This document shows positions 5,035 through 57,332 of a stretch of 64,000 nucleotides of DNA, one piece after another. This stretch comes from an uncultured virus (IMG/VR IMGVR_UViG_3300037508_001402). Lineage: Duplodnaviria > Heunggongvirae > Uroviricota > Caudoviricetes. Location: the IMG/VR virus record IMGVR_UViG_3300037508_001402; one strand, written 5' to 3'. Made by a program: the position numbers and the translations under genes. The stretch's first letter is position 1; every line of letters starts with the position of its first letter. The notes beneath the pieces were generated by a model, which was given only the letters and a program-made list of their open reading frames with translations, made no database searches and was not told the origin of the DNA.

Positions 5035-5172
5035 ATGAAACGCCAACCCCGCAAAATGATCGTCAAAGTCCTGTCTATCCCTGAGCATGAGCGCCACTTC
5101 TTAGAGCAAAGGTTGAATCAGCTTTTGGCTCAAATTGCCCGTGAACTGGGAGAGCAGCGCCGTGCGGGTTGA
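5035..5172 (+). CDS. 45-aa ORF overlapping the integrase start (possible regulator or RDF)
   Basis: MKRQPRKMIVKVLSIPEHERHFLEQRLNQLLAQIARELGEQRRAG; below the ORF-track cutoff. Confidence 0.45.
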   Translation: MKRQPRKMIVKVLSIPEHERHFLEQRLNQLLAQIARELGEQRRAG

Positions 5173-6589
5173 TATCTGGATCAGGGTTTCGTCAGACATG
5201 CAAGTTGAGAGCGATAGCCCCGCCATCCATCTCAGTCGTGCCATGGACTATTGCAGGGATCGTGGTCATGAGGTCAACGAGATCCACCAACTCGACGGGG
5301 TGAGCGGGTGCGCAATCTGGGATCTGCCTGTTGCTCAAAAGATGCGTTTTAATATCGAGACAGGGAAATCGCAGGGCTTGGTATTTACCGCCTTGGACAG
5401 GTTGGGCCGTGATACTTTGGAGCTGTTGCAGTTTGAGCGCTTTTTCAGGGATCACGGTGCTTGCCTCATTTCGATTTTTGATAATATCGACACTTCCACC
5501 TCTGACGGGATGCGGTACTTCCAGGGCCTCGCTGCCCAAGCAGAGTATGAGCGTCGTAAACTGAGTGAGCGTGTTACCCGTGGGATCTTGACCCGTCAAA
5601 AGCGGGGTGAGATATTCGCCCACAAAGCCCCTTTCGGTTATGTCAAAGAGCAAAAGCGCCTCTACTTGCACCCTGTCGAAGCGCCAATTGTTGAGTTAAT
5701 TTTTGAGCTCTTTTTGCAAAGCCAATCCACTGCCAGGGTAGCCAAAGAGCTGAACCTGCGAGGGTACAGAACCAGCGCGGGCAAAGAGTTCAGTTATATG
5801 AGCGTGTCATCAGTCCTGAGAAACCCCACGATGAAAGGGGATCACTACGTCAACAGATACCTGGGCAGGCATAACAAAAAGCCCCGCGAGCAGTGGGTTA
5901 AAATCGAGGTGCCTGCAATTGTCTCAGAGGAAGTTTGGGCCAAAGCCAATGCAATATTGAAGCGCAATCACAAGCCCCACAAAAAAGCCGTGAACGCATA
6001 CAGTGGTCTGCTTCGTTGCCACTGTGGCACTGTGATGTATTTCAGAGGCAGGTATGGCGGCAAGAACAAGCCCCAATACTTTTGTCGAACATGCGCCAAC
6101 AAGATCCAGGCCCCCGACCTCGATCAAGCCATTGCCAGTGTGATCAATTCCTTTGCCCTGGACCAACTCCCCAAAGAGGCCACATTCGAAATCTCGACAG
6201 AGTTTGAGCAGAAAAAACGTCTGCTTGCCGGGTTGACTGCTTCTGTGCAAAAGCTGGAAAGGGAGAAAGATAAACTGATTGAGTTGTTCACGGCTGAGGC
6301 TTTGACCATGGAAGAATTTAAAGCCAAAAAAGAGCCGCTAGCCCAAAGACTGGCAGAGGTTGACAAAGAGCGGGCAGCGCTGGAATATGAGTTGAATGAC
6401 CTGCGTGGGCAGCAGCTGGCAGAGAGAGGGCTGAAGCAGGCCCTGAAAAGCCTCCCATGGAATGAAATCAGAGAGCAGCGAAAGAATGAAGTCTTGCACA
6501 CGTTCGTGAGAGAGATCACGCTGAATCAGGACACAATTGAGCTACAGTTGCTTTATGTGCCAGCGAATCTCAAAGAGAAAAACGTGTAA
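5162..6589 (+). CDS. Large serine recombinase (integrase)
   Basis: IWIRVSS catalytic Ser, LDRLGRD, IDTST, APFGY, Zn ribbon (LLRCHCG...YFCRTC) and coiled coil. Likely GTG start at 5162 after GGAGAG. Confidence 0.95.
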   Translation: MRVDIWIRVSSDMQVESDSPAIHLSRAMDYCRDRGHEVNEIHQLDGVSGCAIWDLPVAQKMRFNIETGKSQGLVFTALDRLGRDTLELLQFERFFRDHGACLISIFDNIDTSTSDGMRYFQGLAAQAEYERRKLSERVTRGILTRQKRGEIFAHKAPFGYVKEQKRLYLHPVEAPIVELIFELFLQSQSTARVAKELNLRGYRTSAGKEFSYMSVSSVLRNPTMKGDHYVNRYLGRHNKKPREQWVKIEVPAIVSEEVWAKANAILKRNHKPHKKAVNAYSGLLRCHCGTVMYFRGRYGGKNKPQYFCRTCANKIQAPDLDQAIASVINSFALDQLPKEATFEISTEFEQKKRLLAGLTASVQKLEREKDKLIELFTAEALTMEEFKAKKEPLAQRLAEVDKERAALEYELNDLRGQQLAERGLKQALKSLPWNEIREQRKNEVLHTFVREITLNQDTIELQLLYVPANLKEKNV

Positions 6590-47864: not shown

Positions 47865-48206
47865 TTAAATTTTGATTACAGGCTCAGGATCTGGGTACCC
47901 ATTTGCCAAAGAGAAGGCTTGCGCATCTTCCCAGCGAGTGAACAACTTAGGCTTTTTGCCAGGGATGTTGACCGACCACTTGCTGACCTGTTGCAAAAGC
48001 GCAGTTTCAACCGCTTGGGTCTGGCTCATCTTCCAAGCCACAGCCAGGGCCTTTTTGGCTGCCAGCGCAGCAGCAGACAGGCGCATTGATGTTGAGCCTG
48101 ATTGTTTTACCTTGGCAGACTTCGCACCCTTGGGCTTACCCCAAGGCAGGCCCTTTTCGCTTGGGTCTCTGGGCTTGCGCCCTGACTTTCCTTTTACTCC
48201 AGACAT
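47865..48206 (-). CDS. Small basic protein, possible ribbon-helix-helix
   Basis: GKSGRKP, then TSMRLS..LAVAWKMSQTQAVE. Confidence 0.55.
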   Translation of the reverse strand: MSGVKGKSGRKPRDPSEKGLPWGKPKGAKSAKVKQSGSTSMRLSAAALAAKKALAVAWKMSQTQAVETALLQQVSKWSVNIPGKKPKLFTRWEDAQAFSLANGYPDPEPVIKI

Positions 48207-48862
48207 GGTTCCACCTCCTCATAAGATGCTTCCCAGGCTTCAGAGAAATCACGATCAGCAAACAGTTCAGCAAGGCCTGAGATTTGTTTGAGACGAAGAA
48301 CCTCGTCAGGCTCCATGCCCAGCTCTTTAGCAATCTTCTGATCGTTCCAATTGCGGCGGGCAAGGTCTTGCACGATCTCTGACATGGCGTCAACCTTATG
48401 TTTGCCCCTTGCGCGATTGTGGCGAATGGTAGAGGCCATGCGATCATTAAGGTCTTGCCGATCAGCTTTAACCAGGGTGATGGGCAGATAGCCACGGACA
48501 CGGGCGCAGACCGCTTTGTCTTCTTTGCCTACCCTGTTACGATGGAACCCGTCAATCACCTCATAATACCCGTTTGTTCCCCAGGCCACGATAGGCTGAG
48601 TATAACCGTCCTCAGAGATACTGTGAGCCAAGAGCTTCATCTCAGGCGGAGCCACGCTGTTGGGGTTGTAATCATTTGCCTCAACAGAGTCATTTTTAAC
48701 CCACAGCACACAGTCCACTGGTTCATCACGCATGGGGCTGGCTTCGTGCAGGGCCTGACGAATTTCGTTTAATACTGTGATGGCGGTCTCTGGATCAAGG
48801 GCTGCAATTTCAGCGGCCAATTCTTTGCCTTTCTCGATCAGGCTTGATTCAAACAGGTTCAT
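48194..48862 (-). CDS. ibrB: IbrB/YbdM-like ParB-domain protein
   Basis: EPVDCVLWV, ANDYNPNSVAPPEMKLL, DGYTQPIV, VIDGFHR and STIRHNRARGKH. Confidence 0.85.
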   Translation of the reverse strand: MNLFESSLIEKGKELAAEIAALDPETAITVLNEIRQALHEASPMRDEPVDCVLWVKNDSVEANDYNPNSVAPPEMKLLAHSISEDGYTQPIVAWGTNGYYEVIDGFHRNRVGKEDKAVCARVRGYLPITLVKADRQDLNDRMASTIRHNRARGKHKVDAMSEIVQDLARRNWNDQKIAKELGMEPDEVLRLKQISGLAELFADRDFSEAWEASYEEVEPCLE

Positions 48863-48915
48863 AGTTGTTTCTCCATTTTCGTGTATTTCTTTAAATTCGA
48901 GGGCTTCATTGGCAA

Positions 48916-50112
48916 TCAAATGTAACTCCATTTTGCTCTTCTCTTTTTCATGATTTTTTTGTACTGAAAATATGCCGTGGACTTGGTGGGGCTGAAAGAC
49001 AAGCTCTTTGCCCAGTAATCGTTTTTCAAAAGCATCTTGCAAATTCGCTTCCAACTTGGGGAGCTTTTGTCTGTCGGTCCATCGTCGGGGATCGCGCCAA
49101 ACTGAAACCCCCGCATGTGGTACCAATTCAGGAACACAGAGATCTTGTTTTCATAATGCTCTCTGGTTTGAGGCGGTAGGCTTTCAAGCAGTAGCTTTGC
49201 AAAGCTCTCCCAGGTGTGGCCTTCGGGCTTTGATATGGTGATCCGTCCCAAGATGTTGCCCGACTCGCTGGCATACAGCGCCCCCTGGTTTGCACCATTG
49301 ACACGCGCCACAATCTTGCTCCATGTCTCAGGCTCAATCACATGATAGAGCCACAATCCCCGGCGCTGATCGTCTCCGTAGGGCTGGCAGATGCGGGCTT
49401 GATGAATGGTGAGCCCGGCCCGGTGCATCCGGTCATACAGTTTGTTGTAGGACTTTTCAGGGAATTTGCCGTGATACGTCCAGATGTCCTCTGTGCGCCA
49501 ATCATAAATTGGGTATGCGTTATACACGCCCCCGCTTTTCCAGGTTGTCCATTTAAAGCCCTGGTAATTGCTGCCCCCTGCAATAGCTCTGAAGCGGTTC
49601 AGCGATTCATCAGAGCGAATCCCCACAAAACAGCAGGTCAACTGACCGTTGCCATACCAGTGGCCAAAATGCTCGATAAACTCTTCAAACTCCATGGCGT
49701 AGGTATAAAAGGGGAATTTTGCCTGATCAGTGATCGCGTATTTCGGAGGGGTACGAACCCAATCAGCCTCTCTGCCTGGCTCCCAACAGACCCATTGGGG
49801 CTCAAACTGACTGACGGCATTGCGCAGATGGATGGGCAGAGATACCCAAAAGGGCTCAATGTGCAGGCCATACTCTTTGAATGTCGCGTCAATATGCTCG
49901 ATAGTGAATTTATACTGTGCTTCGAGGTCGATAAACAAAAGCCCGATCTTGCGATTGCGCCTGATCGCCTCCTCCATGACAAGGTGCAGCATCACGGTTG
50001 AATCTTTCCCGCCTGAATAGCTCAGGTAGATTTTAGGGAAATCATCAAAGGCTTTTGCTATGCGCTGACGGGCAGCGGTTAAAACATCCATTCCAAGGCC
50101 AATTTTAGGCAT
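48916..50112 (-). CDS. ibrA: IbrA/YbdN-like PAPS-reductase-family (DUF3440) protein
   Basis: SYSGGKDS PP-loop, IDLEAQY, GIRSDESLNR, YPIYDW, RICQPYG and WKRICKMLLKNDYW. Confidence 0.9.
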   Translation of the reverse strand: MPKIGLGMDVLTAARQRIAKAFDDFPKIYLSYSGGKDSTVMLHLVMEEAIRRNRKIGLLFIDLEAQYKFTIEHIDATFKEYGLHIEPFWVSLPIHLRNAVSQFEPQWVCWEPGREADWVRTPPKYAITDQAKFPFYTYAMEFEEFIEHFGHWYGNGQLTCCFVGIRSDESLNRFRAIAGGSNYQGFKWTTWKSGGVYNAYPIYDWRTEDIWTYHGKFPEKSYNKLYDRMHRAGLTIHQARICQPYGDDQRRGLWLYHVIEPETWSKIVARVNGANQGALYASESGNILGRITISKPEGHTWESFAKLLLESLPPQTREHYENKISVFLNWYHMRGFQFGAIPDDGPTDKSSPSWKRICKMLLKNDYWAKSLSFSPTKSTAYFQYKKIMKKRRAKWSYI

Positions 50113-50476
50113 TTTCTTCCTCCAGTTTTGTTCTTTGTCCGAGGATAGAATCAACTTCCTCTTGGGTGATCTCGACGATCTGCGCTTCTCGCACTTGGCA
50201 GAAATAGCGTTTAAAATTGCGCCAACTGATTTGCTCTTGCACCTGGTAGACTTTGCCCTCGTCGAGCAGATACCAGCAGTAGACGCCCCGTGTTCCTCTT
50301 GAGTTTGAATGCGTGTAATCGCGTTTGCGCTCAATAAACTTGCGGCGATAACCGTCAGGGGTGTGCCCCAAGATTTCAGCGACCCATGGGTTTTTTTTGC
50401 GCATGGCGGCTTTTTCGCTTTCGCGCTTGTAAAGCTGATTGACATCAAAATATTCTAGGGATAGCGTGGTTTTCAT
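50105..50476 (-). CDS. Hypothetical protein upstream of ibrA
   Basis: PWVAEI.G and DY..SNSRGTRG; coupled to ibrA. Confidence 0.7.
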   Translation of the reverse strand: MKTTLSLEYFDVNQLYKRESEKAAMRKKNPWVAEILGHTPDGYRRKFIERKRDYTHSNSRGTRGVYCWYLLDEGKVYQVQEQISWRNFKRYFCQVREAQIVEITQEEVDSILGQRTKLEEENA

Positions 50477-54231: not shown

Positions 54232-54350
54232 CTCTGTTTGTTTCTTATGTTATCCATACTAACATAACAGACAGGGGTAAATCAAGATATTTTTATACTG
54301 TGATTGATTATTCGTTGACAATATTTGGTTAGTGAGGTTAACATAGTGGT

Positions 54351-54668
54351 ATGAGTCACAAAAATCTTGAACAAGAAGCTGTTATGCTGGTTTTGAATAA
54401 GTCAAACCTCCATGAATTTGGGTTTGATGAAAAAGGAAATCAGTTGAGATACATTCGGTTTTCCGCTGAAAACATCAAGCAGCTTAGAAAAGAACTCGCT
54501 CTGTCGCAGGATAAGCTCGCTTCAGCTATGGACGTGGCCAGAACCACGATCACCCATTACGAATCAGGCTACTTAGACAAGCCCTCTTTCGAGATTTTAT
54601 TGCAACTTGGCAAAGTGTTCTCAGAGCTTGCAGGGTACAAAATCGTATTCTACGCAGACTGGGAATAG
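54351..54668 (+). CDS. XRE repressor
   Basis: IKQLRKELALSQDKLASAMDVARTTITHYESG; ends FYADWE like 45361-45618. Confidence 0.85.
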   Translation: MSHKNLEQEAVMLVLNKSNLHEFGFDEKGNQLRYIRFSAENIKQLRKELALSQDKLASAMDVARTTITHYESGYLDKPSFEILLQLGKVFSELAGYKIVFYADWE

Positions 54669-54917
54669 CCTTTAGCAGCGTGACTCATGCGCTGTGAACC
54701 TTGACAAAAATCAGACCCCCAAAAGTGGGCACGGCCCCTGAAGCCTTGGAGCTTACCCACCTTTCAGCTCCTACGGTGGCGAGCAGCGTGGCTTGCGCTT
54801 ATGGTTATTGGTGCAAGCGTTGGCTGTAAGGCTGTTAGATTCAGCCTGTAACCGAATCACTGTGATCTCCTCTCGCAGTGTTGGCCGTGCTTTCCTTTGG
54901 GGGCCTGAGATGATTAT

Positions 54918-55061
54918 TGGCATGTAGCTCAGTGGTAGAGTCCCGTTCTGGACTTGGGAGGTCGCAGGTTCAAATCCTGCCCGGCTGTAATGGCCGCGTA
55001 GCGCAGTAGGGAGCGCGCCCAAAATAGGCGGAGGGTCGCAGGTTCGATTCCTGCCTTGCCG
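54918..55061 (+). ncRNA. Tandem tRNA-like pair lacking canonical anticodon arms
   Basis: D-arms TAGCTCAGTGGTAGAG and TAGCGCAGTAGGGAGCGC; T-arms GCAGGTTCAAATCCTGC and GCAGGTTCGATTCCTGC. Confidence 0.75.
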
Positions 55062-55269
55062 ACTATCCAAGAAAAATCCACAGAGGCAACCGTGCCCAAT
55101 TTGGGACACCTGCCATATTGATGAGCAGCCTGTGGACGGCAGCCTGCGAAATTAGCTTTTTATCGCAAACACTGAGCAAAGGACGCTTTGAGCGGTGGGG
55201 ATTGCTGGGAATACAAAAGCCGGAGTAAGGCACGAAAGCCTCACCGTAGATCTTCGGGTCTGCGGTTTT

Positions 55270-55342
55270 GCCCCCGAAGCTCTTGGGTAAGAGCGCTCCT
55301 GCAATACGGGAAAGGATGCAAGTTCGAGTCTTGCCGGGGGTT
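55270..55342 (+). tRNA. Pseudo-tRNA / tRNA mimic with a 5-nt anticodon loop and no CCA
   Basis: Acceptor GCCCCCG/CGGGGGT, D-stem GCTC/GAGC, TCCTG-CAATA-CGGGA, and T-arm GCAAG-TTCGAGT-CTTGC. Confidence 0.65.
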
Positions 55343-55427
55343 CTCCCAGAAATGGGAAACAATTAACAAATCGCCAATAGGCGTGAGGGTTAATTGCTCG
55401 GGTTCGTTTCGTTAAAGGAAAGATATA

Positions 55428-55457
55428 GGCCGGGGTCATGTGGCCCTGGCTTTTTTG
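55428..55457 (+). terminator. Intrinsic terminator
   Basis: GCCGGGGTCA/TGGCCCTGGC stem followed by T-tract. Confidence 0.8.
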
Positions 55458-55970
55458 CACCACAAAAGCAGCATAGCCCTTCTCTGTGCTGCTCTTGCGG
55501 GTCAAATAAACATCAAGGAGAGGAAAAGTCCCTTGGCAATTAGGAATGTGTTGTTCGGGCAGCCCGCGCCCGGTTTTTGCTCCCAATGACAGCATTGCCT
55601 TTCGAGCTTGTGCTGTCTTTAGGGGTAAAAAATACAGCAAAGGAAAAGGGAGAGATCATCGAGTGCATTGGCGGGCCTACCCCTGCCCGGTTTTTGTTCG
55701 CAACGGCTGCATGTTTGGCCCGTGCAGCCCTTACGGTCAAAAGCCGTAATAAATTGAAAAGGAGCAGTTTCTACGTTCTCGAAGTGGTTTAAATTTTTGC
55801 AACGGGTCAGGCTAAACCCTGGCCCATTTTTTCTCACAAAAAAAGCGGTAGTTCTCGCTACCGCATTTAAGATGCGCAGCACATAGTACAACACATCCCA
55901 AATAACCATCACCAATATACCACGCTGCGCCTCTCAATTATCACGCCAATCGGCAGAGAGGTCTTTTTAC

Positions 55971-57332
55971 ATGTTTCAACACGTCAAACAGTATCGGCAA
56001 AAGCACGGACTCACACAGGAGGCCATGGGCAATCTATTGGGGATGGATGCAAAGTTCATCTGGAATTTAGAGAAGCACAAGCCACGCATGAGCATCAATG
56101 GTGTTCGTGTGGTTTATTCCCCCCAAGAAGAGGTGATGCTGAAATCTGTTTTTGGAGATTCAGCAGACGCAGGCAAACACCCCAGCTATTTTGAAGGGCT
56201 TCCATCCATCACAGGACAAGATCTGTACAGCATCCGCAAACAGAAGCGCATGACGCAGGCTGAGGCGGGTGAGGTCATTGGTGTATCAGCCGCGCAATGG
56301 GGCGTACTCGAAGCAGGCAAAAGCAAAGAGGACACCCCCAACATCCGCCGCTGGTACACATTGCTTCTCGTTCACCACTTCCCCGAATACTTCCAGCCCA
56401 CAGAAATGACACTTGCTGACGAATCGCTCATGGTAGAGGCACAGGTTTTGACACCTGAACCCGAACCTGTTCAGGATGACTTTGCAGATCAGCCCGGCTT
56501 GATCCCTTTCGCGTATGGCTCTCAGAAAGTGCGTGTGAAGTGGATTGATGGGGAGCCATGGTTCATGCTTTTAGATGTCTGCAAAGCCGTTGGATACAAG
56601 TCTATCCAACACGCAGCTGAACTTATTCGGGAACGTGACATCCGCAAAGTGGAGTGCGCCGATTCACTTGGTCGGGTGACTGAAGCAAACTTTGTCTCAG
56701 AGCGTGGCATGTCTCAGTTCTTTTTAAGAGCTCGCGTGCCAGCTGTCGAGCAATTTCAGGATTGGGTATTTGATGAGGTACTGCCATCAGTTTATAAAAC
56801 AGGCGGCTACCAAGTTAATCAACCTCAGCAGATTCAGGCTTCCATCGATCCCCTTTCTCAGGTGCTGATGATTGGCCAGGCACTTCAGACAATTGCCCAA
56901 CAGATGCAGGCCCAAGCCAGCGAGATCAGTTCTCTCAAAGAGCAGGTTTCCAAAGTCAATTACCTGGAAGTATCCAAGACCGATCGCTCTGAAGTTCTCG
57001 AGATCGTGCAAAGCGAAGTGCTGGAATCAAAGCTCAAAGAGAAACAAGAGCAAAAGATCCACTATCGCAAGCGCAAAGAGCTTGAAAATCGTGTTTCTGA
57101 CCTTGGCTGGTCAATCGTGAAGGCTCACGGCGGCAACCATGGGGAAGTTATCAAAGGCATAAACAAGCGAATCAAAGCGGCTCTCAGGGGTGTGTATGGA
57201 TATGCCATTGCCAGGGAGCGGTACACCGATGAAGATTTTGCCCTGGCTTACCAGGTGATCGCAATGGTTGAAAAAGAGATCAAGGACTTTCCCAAACAGG
57301 GAGAAATAAATTTTGATGGAGACGCAGCATGA
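55971..57332 (+). CDS. Antirepressor: two XRE HTHs, BRO-N domain and coiled coil
   Basis: FAYGSQKVRV..DGEPWF..DVCKAVG and FQDWVFDEVLPSVYKTGGY. Confidence 0.85.
   Translation: MFQHVKQYRQKHGLTQEAMGNLLGMDAKFIWNLEKHKPRMSINGVRVVYSPQEEVMLKSVFGDSADAGKHPSYFEGLPSITGQDLYSIRKQKRMTQAEAGEVIGVSAAQWGVLEAGKSKEDTPNIRRWYTLLLVHHFPEYFQPTEMTLADESLMVEAQVLTPEPEPVQDDFADQPGLIPFAYGSQKVRVKWIDGEPWFMLLDVCKAVGYKSIQHAAELIRERDIRKVECADSLGRVTEANFVSERGMSQFFLRARVPAVEQFQDWVFDEVLPSVYKTGGYQVNQPQQIQASIDPLSQVLMIGQALQTIAQQMQAQASEISSLKEQVSKVNYLEVSKTDRSEVLEIVQSEVLESKLKEKQEQKIHYRKRKELENRVSDLGWSIVKAHGGNHGEVIKGINKRIKAALRGVYGYAIARERYTDEDFALAYQVIAMVEKEIKDFPKQGEINFDGDAA

What the first reader, a model, noticed from the sequence alone, without database searches (positions are those of the whole stretch)
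54918..55061. Strand-swapped double tRNA: a permuted tRNA nested in another tRNA's anticodon position
Seen: two tandem tRNA-like units with clean D- and T-arms, neither of which folds well on itself in the canonical register. They pair crosswise. CCCAA (55018-22) pairs perfectly with TTGGG (54954-58). CCGTT (54943-47) pairs with GGCGG (55027-31). TGGCATG (54918-24) pairs with CTTGCCG (55055-61) at 6 of 7 positions. CCGGCTG (54981-87) pairs with TGGCCGCG (54991-98) across a TAA linker with one bulge. Inference: the RNA forms an outer tRNA body and an inner circularly permuted tRNA body joined anticodon stem to anticodon stem, giving two elbows, no anticodon and no CCA. It could be a decoy or scaffold for elbow-binding host proteins or tRNA-targeting defence nucleases. 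Weaker self-folds exist (TCCCG/TGGGA; GCC/GGC with a 7-nt loop) but they disturb the D-stems.
Basis: partly seen in the sequence, partly recalled or inferred. Interest (0 to 1): 0.85.

Follow-up and report, generated by a model that had tools for sequence, protein, structure and literature searches.

The report
Nested double tRNA mimic in phage
A lake phage carries a small RNA gene that seems to fold into two tRNA-shaped bodies, one tucked inside the other, with no anticodon; similar elements occur in a few other phages, and the layout resembles a proposed evolutionary step between tRNA pairs and bacterial Y RNAs.

Summary
Window 54918-55061 holds two tRNA-like units with intact D and T arms. 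Neither folds as a cloverleaf: ARAGORN calls none, and Rfam tRNA scores are 32.5 and 26.9 bits. All four cross-pairings exist as described.

The nested fold is supported. It evaluates at -46.1 kcal/mol against -31.6 for two cloverleaves. I found seven other elements with the same layout (L127, L136, L148, L166, L299, L309, L339). On the 8-sequence alignment the nested structure pairs 96.6% of cells, and the four discriminating helices pair at 85-100% with changes on both sides. The cloverleaf alternative pairs them at 46-59%.

Caveats: the members were partly chosen for fitting, and about 3% of genuine tRNA pairs show comparable cross-complementarity.

It is not a YrlA Y RNA. The 30.9-bit YrlA hit is what any tRNA junction gives, and there is no GNCGAA motif and no linked Ro60 gene.

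Function is inferred only: a non-decoding tRNA mimic matured at its outer end like a tRNA. L299 encodes ACCA there.

The scan had noted single orphan permuted mimics in phages before, but not this nested form.

The parts
54918..54924 (+). outer acceptor-type stem, 5' strand (TGGCATG)
   Evidence: Pairs with 55055-61 at 6/7. Helix 1 of A3: 7 of 7 pairs change on both sides, 94.6% of cells paired. The same strand pairs with unit 1's own 3' strand in only 58.9% of cells.
54927..54941 (+). D arm 1 (stem GCTC/GAGT, loop AGTGGTA)
   Evidence: Helix 2 of A3 is 100% paired.
54943..54947 (+). outer linker stem, 5' strand (CCGTT)
   Evidence: Pairs with 55027-31 at 5/5. Helix 3 of A3: 4 of 5 pairs change on both sides, 92.1% paired.
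54948..54953 (+). internal loop, 5' side (CTGGAC), between the two stacked linker stems
   Evidence: Length varies among members, from 0 to 6 nt.
54954..54958 (+). inner closing stem, 5' strand (TTGGG)
   Evidence: Pairs with 55018-22 at 5/5 Watson-Crick. Helix 4 of A3: 5 of 5 pairs change on both sides, 85.3% paired.
54964..54980 (+). T arm 1 (GCAGG TTCAAAT CCTGC)
   Evidence: Helix 5 of A3 is 100% paired.
54981..54998 (+). inner acceptor-type hairpin, closed by a 3-5 nt loop, one bulged C
   Evidence: Helix 6 of A3: 6 of 6 pairs change on both sides, 100% paired. Capped by TTCG in L148 and TGCG in L127.
55001..55016 (+). D arm 2 (stem GCGC/GCGC, loop AGTAGGGA)
   Evidence: Helix 7 of A3 is 100% paired.
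55018..55022 (+). inner closing stem, 3' strand (CCCAA)
   Evidence: See 54954-58.
55027..55031 (+). outer linker stem, 3' strand (GGCGG)
   Evidence: See 54943-47.
55038..55054 (+). T arm 2 (GCAGG TTCGATT CCTGC)
   Evidence: Helix 8 of A3 is 100% paired.
55055..55062 (+). outer acceptor-type stem, 3' strand (CTTGCCG) plus A at the discriminator place; no encoded CCA
   Evidence: In L299 the equivalent strand is followed by ACCA.
55270..55342 (+). third, free-standing tRNA-like unit 209 nt downstream (possibly the same transcript; not part of the nested fold)
   Evidence: Rfam tRNA 38.4 bits. ARAGORN-negative. Perfect 7-bp acceptor, aberrant 7-nt loop.
55428..55455 (+). first good terminator-like hairpin with T-run downstream of the tRNA-like units
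   Evidence: stem 55428-55445 followed by CTGGCTTTTT.

Best explanation
Window 54918-55061(+) is one small non-coding RNA gene of about 144 nt in a temperate phage. It lies in the lysogeny-control region, between a Cro/CI-type HTH gene and an Ant-type anti-repressor gene. The RNA does not form two cloverleaves. The 5' strand of unit 1 pairs with the 3' strand of unit 2 to make a 7-bp acceptor-type stem that closes the whole molecule. D arm 1 and T arm 2 branch from that junction, giving an outer tRNA-like body. Its anticodon-type stem (CCGTT/GGCGG) stacks, across a 6x4 internal loop, on a second stem (TTGGG/CCCAA). That second stem closes an inner, circularly permuted tRNA-like body made of T arm 1, a loop-capped acceptor hairpin and D arm 2. 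The result is two L-shaped tRNA bodies joined tail to tail, with two elbows, one open acceptor end, one sealed acceptor end and no anticodon loop. Shown: the pairings, their recurrence and their covariation in seven other phage, prophage or metagenome elements. Inferred: (a) the outer end is matured like a tRNA (RNase P at the 5' end, trimming and CCA addition at the 3' end); (b) the RNA cannot decode and acts as a tRNA mimic that occupies or tethers tRNA-binding host factors through its elbows and acceptor end, as the effector module of YrlA Y RNAs is thought to do, but without a Ro60-binding module; (c) it arose from a tandem tRNA transcript and corresponds to the intermediate that Sim and Wolin's model places between dimeric tRNAs and YrlA. 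My odds: nested fold about 0.8; tRNA-type maturation of the outer end about 0.55; decoy or tether function about 0.35.
For: Pairings and register are read. Energies with all four arms kept: nested -46.1, two cloverleaves -31.6 kcal/mol. With only the arms enforced, the MFE is -48.7 with nested topology. On alignment A3 (8 sequences), 96.6% of cells pair against 66.1% in shuffles and 30-47% when slid. 30 of 41 pairs change on both sides, including 7/7 in the outer acceptor, 6/6 in the inner hairpin, and 4/5 and 5/5 in the linker stems. The cloverleaf pairing on the same alignment gives 58.9, 54.5, 46.0 and 46.9%. An alignment-free test anchored on the arms gives a swapped outer stem of 7/7 in L148, L136, L309, L339, L299 and L166 and 6/7 in the window, against a mean of 3.6/7 in 108 genuine pairs. 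Enrichment: 8 of 52 non-tRNA cores pass against 7 of 234 genuine pairs, Fisher p=0.0017. Evidence that it is a unit gene with a tRNA-type end: L127 has TTGACA-17-TACACT 5 nt upstream and a terminator downstream, L309 and L339 have a T-run right after the closing stem, and L299 encodes ACCA after the outer 3' strand. Inner hairpins are capped by TTCG (L148) and TGCG (L127), so they are meant to stay closed. In L309 and L339, position 15 of D1 is A and the base before T stem 2 is T, while D2 has G and the base before T stem 1 is C; both 15:48 tertiary pairs are therefore canonical only in the nested arrangement (the 15:48 rule is recalled textbook knowledge). Overlapping minus-strand ORFs match no family. 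The dimeric-tRNA origin model is quoted from passages of 10.1101/312249.
Against: There are only eight members. I picked them with a model and criteria that favour the nested fold, and A3 is fitted to that model, so the pair counts lean towards it. About 3% of genuine tRNA pairs (7 of 234) reach comparable cross-complementarity by chance. The improved model R2 scores ordinary tRNA pairs up to about 96 bits, so it does not define the family on its own. In L299 the linkers prefer to self-fold, and in L127 the constrained MFE recovers only 5 of 18 nested pairs. L166 and L335 can pair either way. The window's unconstrained MFE (-53.6) is no better than shuffled sequence (z=0.13). I found no close homologue of the window's own element: 0 hits in three collections. 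There is no expression data. Unit 1 keeps a tRNA-Pro-like loop in the self register. Function is pure inference.
Confidence: 0.6

Rival explanations
1. Two decaying tandem tRNA genes (pseudogenes) whose acceptor and anticodon stems have eroded. On this view the cross-pairing is chance or a leftover of sequence similarity between the two units, and the RNA, if made, has no structure-dependent role.
For: Unit 1 resembles phage tRNA-Pro and tRNA-Gln genes at 81-83% over 61-66 nt and keeps TGG in a 7-nt loop in the self register. 7 of 234 genuine tRNA pairs show similar cross-complementarity by chance. The two 5' acceptor strands both start TGGC, so part of the swapped acceptor pairing follows from similarity.
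Against: Decay should hit all stems alike. Yet all four D and T stems are intact (18 of 18 pairs), while the self acceptor and anticodon stems are poor and the swapped ones are 22-23 of 24. The same selective pattern recurs in seven unrelated sequences with compensatory changes. Inner hairpins are capped by stable tetraloops, and L127 has its own promoter and terminator.
Confidence: 0.1
2. Only the inner permuted module (T arm 1, capped hairpin, D arm 2) matters: an orphan YrlA-like tRNA mimic of the kind already seen in phages. D arm 1, T arm 2 and the outer stem would be relics of the tRNA dimer it came from, or merely a closing helix.
For: Single and tandem permuted modules without outer arms are more common in the fetched loci than the nested form: L082, L131, L140, L143, L147, L150, L156, L157. 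Earlier notes of this scan describe orphan single modules in phages. The inner module aligns to YrlA model positions 19-90.
Against: The outer acceptor stem covaries at 7 of 7 pairs, and D arm 1 and T arm 2 are 100% paired with canonical loops in 8 of 8 members. The outer stem is 7 bp as in tRNA. L299 encodes ACCA after it.
Confidence: 0.13
3. A processing or stabilising element. The tRNA-like fold recruits RNase P, RNase Z or the CCA enzyme to cut the early transcript at defined points or to protect RNA ends, with no trans-acting role.
For: In the window no sigma-70-like promoter precedes the element; the nearest is upstream of the HTH gene at 54315-54344. The element is therefore probably co-transcribed, followed by another tRNA-like unit and structured RNA up to a terminator at 55428-55455.
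Against: L127, L309 and L339 look like free-standing small genes. A single tRNA-like unit would suffice for punctuation, so this view does not explain the conserved nested double body or the sealed inner acceptor.
Confidence: 0.12
4. A divergent YrlA-type Y RNA that works with a Ro60 (Rsr) protein supplied by the host.
For: Sub-threshold YrlA hits on the window (30.9 bits) and on other members (28.8-41.5 bits). The host genome is unknown.
Against: Genuine tRNA pairs give the same 26-34 bit YrlA hits, as the YrlA authors warn (PMC4201824, Methods passage). There is no GNCGAA motif on either strand of 54851-55130. None of the window's ORFs of 350 aa or more, and none of the 10 ORFs scanned within 4 kb, is a TROVE protein. 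No TROVE gene in the contigs of L127 (100% complete phage), L136 or L148. In Lentzea the only TROVE match lies about 4.1 Mb away.
Confidence: 0.05

Closest known systems
YrlA (Y RNA-like A; Rfam RF02553), tRNA-like effector domain of bacterial and mycobacteriophage Y RNAs (Chen et al. 2014, PMC4201824, passages read; Wang et al. 2018 preprint 10.1101/312249, passages read)
   Same: The inner body has the YrlA layout: T arm, then a loop-closed acceptor-type stem, then D arm, closed by an anticodon-type stem. It has no free CCA on that stem and no anticodon loop. It probably shares the tRNA L-shape and elbow.
   Different: There is no Ro60-binding stem and no GNCGAAN0-1G motif, no linked Ro60 gene, and the score is far below the Rfam threshold. 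In place of the Ro60 module the closing stem runs into a second, normally ordered tRNA-like body with an open 7-bp acceptor end.
Dimeric-tRNA origin model for YrlA (Sim and Wolin 2018, as cited and summarised in 10.1101/312249; the review itself was not seen)
   Same: The model takes the T arm from tRNA 1 and the D arm from tRNA 2, and has the leftover D arm of tRNA 1 and T arm of tRNA 2 pair with each other. The nested RNAs have exactly these four arms in that order.
   Different: The model predicts that the leftovers become a Ro60-binding helix. Here they remain intact arms and build a second tRNA body. Whether these RNAs are ancestors, offshoots or independent inventions is unknown.
Orphan single or tandem permuted tRNA mimics in phages
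   Same: Phage-borne, lacking Ro60 where tested, with a capped acceptor and no anticodon loop.
   Different: Those modules each have their own closing stem and lie side by side. The window's element has one module nested inside a second tRNA body.
Circularly permuted tRNA genes of Cyanidioschyzon merolae and some archaea (as summarised in 10.1101/312249; otherwise recalled)
   Same: The 3' half precedes the 5' half, and the acceptor is initially a closed loop.
   Different: Those are precursors of working tRNAs with anticodon loops, processed by a splicing endonuclease. Here there is no anticodon loop to restore: the internal loops range from 0 to 6 nt and vary among members.
Ordinary closely spaced phage tRNA pairs
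   Same: Same order of arms, similar lengths, similar D and T arm sequences. Unit 1 is 81-83% identical to phage tRNA genes.
   Different: Genuine pairs have self acceptor stems averaging 13.5 of 14 pairs and are called by ARAGORN. The window has 9 of 14 and is not called.

Membership tests
tRNA (RF00005), each unit taken alone | 7-bp acceptor stem formed by the unit's own 5' and 3' ends | tested here: not met
   5 of 7 pairs in unit 1, and 5 of 7 with a deletion in unit 2. Across the 8 members the self acceptor helices pair in 58.9% and 46.0% of cells.
tRNA (RF00005), each unit taken alone | 5-bp anticodon stem with a 7-nt loop carrying U33 and an anticodon | tested here: not met
   Unit 1: 4 of 5 pairs only after deleting position 26, with C at position 33. 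Unit 2: a 3-bp stem at best. ARAGORN finds 0 genes.
tRNA (RF00005), each unit taken alone | D arm and T arm with the conserved elbow nucleotides (GG in the D loop, TTCRA in the T loop) | tested here: met
   Both units. Rfam scores of 32.5 and 26.9 bits rest on these arms.
YrlA (RF02553) | Permuted tRNA-like domain: T arm, capped acceptor stem, D arm, closing stem | tested here: met
   54952-55025 aligns to model positions 19-90 of 114.
YrlA (RF02553) | Score at or above Rfam's gathering threshold (69 bits), and specific | tested here: not met
   30.9 bits. Junctions of genuine tRNA pairs score 26-34 bits.
YrlA (RF02553) | Ro60-binding module with a GNCGAAN0-1G motif near the 5' end | tested here: not met
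   No GNCGAA on either strand of 54851-55130. Model positions 1-18 and 91-114 are unmatched.
YrlA (RF02553) | Encoded within about 4 kb of a Ro60/TROVE gene on the same strand | tested here: not met
   None of the 10 ORFs scanned within 4 kb and none of the window's ORFs of 350 aa or more is TROVE. Absent from the contigs of L127, L136 and L148. The host genome is not available.
Permuted tRNA gene (precursor of a working tRNA) | After processing, yields a cloverleaf with a 7-nt anticodon loop | tested here: not met
   The loops between the stacked stems are 6+4 nt in the window, 2+2 in L148 and none in L127.
tmRNA (one- or two-piece) | tRNA-like domain plus a tag reading frame; detected by ARAGORN or Rfam | tested here: not met
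   ARAGORN finds no tmRNA. No tmRNA hit on the window at gathering threshold or at E<=10 within 54300-55700.
Nested double tRNA mimic (class proposed here) | Order 5' strand, D arm, linker, T arm, capped hairpin, D arm, linker, T arm, 3' strand; outer strands pair; linkers pair with each other | tested here: met
   Window plus 7 others. Covariation. Constrained folds: outer stem in 8 of 8, capped hairpin in 7 of 8, cross-linker stem in 6 of 8.

The most novel reading that the evidence does not exclude
These are a previously undescribed class of phage small RNAs in which two complete tRNA bodies share one continuous anticodon-type helix: one with an open, CCA-competent acceptor end, and one circularly permuted and sealed. 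On this reading the class is a living example of the dimeric-tRNA intermediate postulated for the origin of Y RNAs. It would work as a bivalent tRNA mimic that traps or bridges tRNA-binding host factors during infection or lysogeny, for example dimeric processing or modification enzymes, or tRNA-directed immune effectors that read the elbow or the acceptor end.
Probability: 0.3. Interest if true: 0.85.

Novelty: new variant of a known kind. Interest (0 to 1): 0.68.

Why it matters
tRNA mimicry by non-coding RNAs is known in a handful of forms: tmRNA, viral 3' tRNA-like structures, mascRNA and YrlA. A single RNA that builds two tRNA bodies by swapping strands between two tandem units would be a new architecture.

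It would give the first natural sequences that look like the proposed step between tRNA dimers and Y RNAs, which makes that evolutionary model testable.

Its occurrence in temperate phages of unrelated hosts, without Ro60, points to a tRNA-binding partner that is not yet known. This comes at a time when tRNA-targeting phage defences and phage tRNA countermeasures are being uncovered.

It also shows that annotation pipelines either miss such genes or miscall them as weak tRNAs.

Tried and rejected
- **Unconstrained folding.** The MFE of -53.6 kcal/mol breaks T arm 1 and D arm 2 and is no better than shuffles (z=0.13; 104 of 200 shuffles fold as well). It is not informative.
- **YrlA as evidence.** I dropped the YrlA hit after the control.
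- **Close homologues of the window's own element.** An exact 40-mer found 0 hits in viral contigs. A pattern fixing T arm 1 and D arm 2 found 0 in viral, metagenome and genome contigs. blastn against GenBank phages found only tRNA-gene similarity in 4 records. The Ant-like neighbour protein has no relative in viral contigs.
- **Whole genome.** None is held.
- **Sequencing runs.** 21 runs listed and no RNA holder listed. Of the four runs laid, three hold the identical phage. X10 holds a relative whose flanks match at roughly 90-95%, but no contig of it lies on about 54941-55350 at 80% likeness or more, so I obtained no stem variants.
- **First broad pattern.** Of its 126 candidates, 89 had two ARAGORN tRNAs, 36 had one, and only L082 had none.
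- **Third viral pattern.** It gave 97 D-T-D-T cores. 93 are genuine pairs, and the only nested one (L508) has the same sequence as L136.
- **Model R2.** It scores ordinary tRNA pairs at 75-96 bits, so I did not use its scores to define membership. L245, L326, L295, L262 and L193 were read by hand and rejected as self-paired tRNA pairs. L335 was left as ambiguous.
- **15:48 tertiary covariation.** It is informative only in L309 and L339; L299 is neutral.
- **Shared neighbour genes.** None among four contexts.
- **Literature.** Searches for a nested, double or tandem tRNA-like RNA in phages found no description. These cover open-access papers and bioRxiv only, and the Sim and Wolin review was not in the library listing.

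Full report
**1. What is at the coordinates**

The window is a tailed temperate phage or prophage from a lake-water metagenome. It has a serine recombinase at 5135-6589, a 2262-aa minor-tail/tape-measure protein and a prohead protease.

The finding lies in a 1.3-kb ORF-poor gap. On one side is a Cro/CI-type HTH gene (54351-54668). On the other is an HTH plus Bro-N, Ant-type anti-repressor gene (55971-57332). The minus-strand ORFs that overlap the gap match nothing in Pfam or PHROGs.

The sequence shows two tRNA-like units with intact D and T arms. ARAGORN calls no tRNA anywhere in the window. Rfam scores the units at 32.5 and 26.9 bits, with a threshold of 29. Genuine phage tRNAs in my control loci score 39-80 bits, mostly 55-80.

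**2. A trap avoided**

A permissive Rfam scan matched 54952-55025 to YrlA, the bacterial Y RNA-like family, at 30.9 bits against a threshold of 69. The match covers exactly the permuted tRNA-like domain, model positions 19-90.

The YrlA authors warn that the T arm of one tRNA and the D arm of the next can score as YrlA (PMC4201824, Methods passage). My control confirmed this: junctions of genuine tandem phage tRNAs give YrlA hits of 26-34 bits. The hit is therefore no evidence by itself.

**3. Single-sequence tests**

With all four arms kept, the nested structure evaluates at -46.1 kcal/mol and two cloverleaves at -31.6. With only the arms enforced, the free-energy minimum (-48.7) has the nested topology and recovers 18 of the 23 discriminating pairs. 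The unconstrained minimum breaks two arms and is no better than shuffled sequence.

**4. Relatives**

No close homologue of the window's own element exists in the three contig collections or in GenBank phages. Laid contigs of four lake runs gave no stem variants.

I therefore searched for the layout rather than the sequence. Of 259 unique cores, 161 have no ARAGORN tRNA across them. They fall into several kinds:

- tandem chains of self-closed permuted modules, for example L082, L131, L140 and L157;
- a longer chain-type RNA seen in Bacteroidota chromosomes;
- a small group with the window's order of parts.

**5. The nested group**

It gave full-length hits at 79.3 (L339), 79.0 (L136), 72.9 (L148), 68.9 (L299), 64.4 (L166), 64.0 (L309) and 40.9 bits (L127).

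Read by hand, each has these features:

- a 5' strand that pairs with the far 3' strand, at 7 of 7 in six of them;
- two intact D arms and two intact T arms;
- a capped hairpin between T arm 1 and D arm 2;
- linkers that pair with each other.

On Infernal's alignment of the eight (A3) the nested structure pairs 96.6% of cells. Shuffles give 66.1%, and sliding the partners gives 30-47%. 30 of 41 pairs change on both sides.

| Helix | Pairs changed on both sides | Cells paired, nested | Cells paired, cloverleaf |
|---|---|---|---|
| Outer acceptor | 7 of 7 | 94.6% | 58.9% |
| Inner hairpin | 6 of 6 | 100% | 46.0% |
| Outer linker stem | 4 of 5 | 92.1% | 54.5% |
| Inner linker stem | 5 of 5 | 85.3% | 46.9% |

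The cloverleaf figures are for the corresponding self helices and sit at about the slid-control level.

With only the arms fixed, ViennaRNA recovers the outer closing stem in 8 of 8 members, the capped hairpin in 7 of 8, and a cross-linker stem in 6 of 8.

**6. How far this can be trusted**

The members were found with a model of the nested fold and kept because they fit. The alignment is also fitted to that fold. I therefore added a test that uses no alignment, taking stem strands at fixed tRNA offsets from the arms.

Genuine tRNA pairs average 13.5 of 14 self acceptor pairs and 3.6 of 7 swapped outer pairs. Only 1 of 108 combines a swapped outer stem of 6 or more with linkers that prefer the cross duplex by 4 kcal/mol or more.

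With criteria that ignore self-pairing altogether, 7 of 234 genuine pairs pass, against 8 of 52 cores that are not two tRNAs (Fisher p=0.0017). One of the eight is the L299 flanking tRNA paired with unit 1, so seven are true nested cores. L127 falls outside the geometric filter.

The class is therefore real but small, and a single case has a background of a few per cent. L166 and L335 can pair either way. A further viral scan anchored on D1, T1 and D2 gave 97 cores, of which 93 are genuine pairs, and no new nested member. The second model, R2, does not separate nested members from ordinary pairs below about 96 bits.

**7. What kind of gene it is**

- L127 has a good promoter (TTGACA, 17 nt, TACACT) 5 nt before the element and a terminator after it.
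- L309 and L339 have a T-run directly after the closing stem.
- L299 follows a genuine tRNA and, like it, encodes ACCA after its 3' strand.

The whole nested unit thus behaves as one small RNA with a tRNA-type outer end.

The inner hairpin is sealed, by TTCG in L148 and TGCG in L127, and varies from 5 to 7 bp. No member has an anticodon loop: the loops between the stacked stems range from none to 6 nt.

All contexts are phage or prophage. They share no neighbouring protein family, and none has Ro60, RtcB or an RNA ligase nearby. In the window the element is probably co-transcribed with the HTH gene. It is followed 209 nt later by a third aberrant tRNA-like unit (55270-55342, 38.4 bits), then by structured RNA up to a terminator at 55428-55455.

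**8. Comparison with what is known**

The inner body has the YrlA design. The element nevertheless fails three of YrlA's four defining features: score, Ro60 motif and Ro60 linkage (see Membership tests). It is not a pair of tRNAs, not a permuted tRNA precursor and not tmRNA.

The YrlA structure preprint summarises a model in which YrlA arose from a dimeric tRNA transcript. The T arm came from tRNA 1 and the D arm from tRNA 2. The remaining D arm and T arm pair to form what became the Ro60-binding stem (10.1101/312249, Discussion passages). The nested RNAs have exactly that composition, but the leftovers are still arms and build a second tRNA body.

Full-text searches found no description of such an RNA. 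Earlier notes of this scan record orphan single permuted mimics in phages, but no nested form.

**9. Mechanism**

- **Shown:** the fold and its conservation.
- **Inferred from tRNA biology (recalled):** a 7-bp acceptor stem with D/T elbow is the substrate determinant of RNase P and the CCA enzyme, so the outer end should be matured like a tRNA. M. smegmatis YrlA, which has a 7-bp stem, is cut by RNase P and receives CCA (PMC4201824, passage).
- **Consequence of having no anticodon:** the RNA cannot decode.
- **Most economical reading:** a tRNA mimic that engages tRNA-binding factors through two elbows and one acceptor end. I put that at about one in three.

The recent literature on phage tRNAs that counter tRNA-cleaving defences (listings and abstracts only) makes a role in that conflict plausible but does not test it.

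**10. Verdict**

The structural interpretation is supported, and the functional one remains open. This is a new variant of the tRNA-mimic kind. It is rare but recurrent in phages, and it bears directly on how Y RNAs arose.

Noticed in passing
window 55270-55342 (+): A third, free-standing tRNA-like unit: Rfam tRNA 38.4 bits but ARAGORN-negative. It has a perfect 7-bp acceptor stem, A instead of T at position 8, and a 7-nt loop GCAATAC without U33. A GNRA-capped hairpin and a long stem follow, up to a terminator-like hairpin at 55428-55455.
   Followed up: partly
window 55500-55840 (+): Three successive small units, each with a purine-rich RBS-like box, a very short ORF and a terminator-like hairpin. 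Two of the hairpins end in CCCGGTTTTTG (55555-55573, 55670-55689, 55804-55825). These could be leader peptides or small RNAs of the early region.
   Followed up: no
L082, L131, L140 (=L146), L143, L147, L150, L156, L157 (IMG/VR contigs): Tandem chains of two or more permuted tRNA-like modules (T arm, capped hairpin, D arm). Each has its own closing stem, and some chains are enclosed by a further outer stem. YrlA scores are 24.7-48.5 bits, all below threshold. No TROVE gene was found in the two contigs tested (L082, L131).
   Followed up: partly
L165, L175, L188, L192, L198, L204, L209, L264, L329, L337, L358 and many more (Bacteroidota genomes and metagenome contigs): A recurrent chromosomal RNA, seen in Chitinophagaceae, Pedobacter, Ferruginibacter and relatives. 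It has T arm, capped hairpin, D arm, a very short linker, T arm, capped hairpin and a divergent D arm. Many copies are preceded by a conserved TAGTGCAG...GTATGCTGTTG segment. The two loci scanned with Rfam (L165, L209) gave only sub-threshold YrlA hits, and 0 of 5 genomes tested have a TROVE gene. It may be an undescribed ncRNA family.
   Followed up: partly
L180 (Arenimonas MAG) 254-387: Two adjacent self-paired mini tRNA-likes whose anticodon arms are replaced by 4-bp hairpins with GAGA and GAAA tetraloops.
   Followed up: no
L335 291-437 (-): Two near-identical tRNA-like units whose swapped acceptor stems are perfect (7 of 7 Watson-Crick, both), while the self stems are 6/7 and 5/7. ARAGORN still calls two tRNAs, one with a 4-base anticodon. 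It may be a transition state between a tRNA pair and the nested form.
   Followed up: partly
window 54915-54940 and 55034-55055, contigs of runs X6 and X7: A 104-nt contig from the lake joins the 5' strand plus D arm of unit 1 (1 difference in 26) to the T arm of unit 2, through 20 letters that read as an ordinary anticodon arm with GTT. In other words, a genuine tRNA in the same habitat resembles the outer body's two halves. This is a lead on origin or host only, because these arms are generic.
   Followed up: no
window 48194-50448 (-): A ParB-N-like gene followed by a PAPS-reductase/DUF3440 gene, a pair often seen in mobile elements.
   Followed up: no
L008 47-247 (-): A cyanobacterial-type permuted tmRNA (102.6 bits) inside an IMG/VR phage contig, next to a tRNA cluster.
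   Followed up: no
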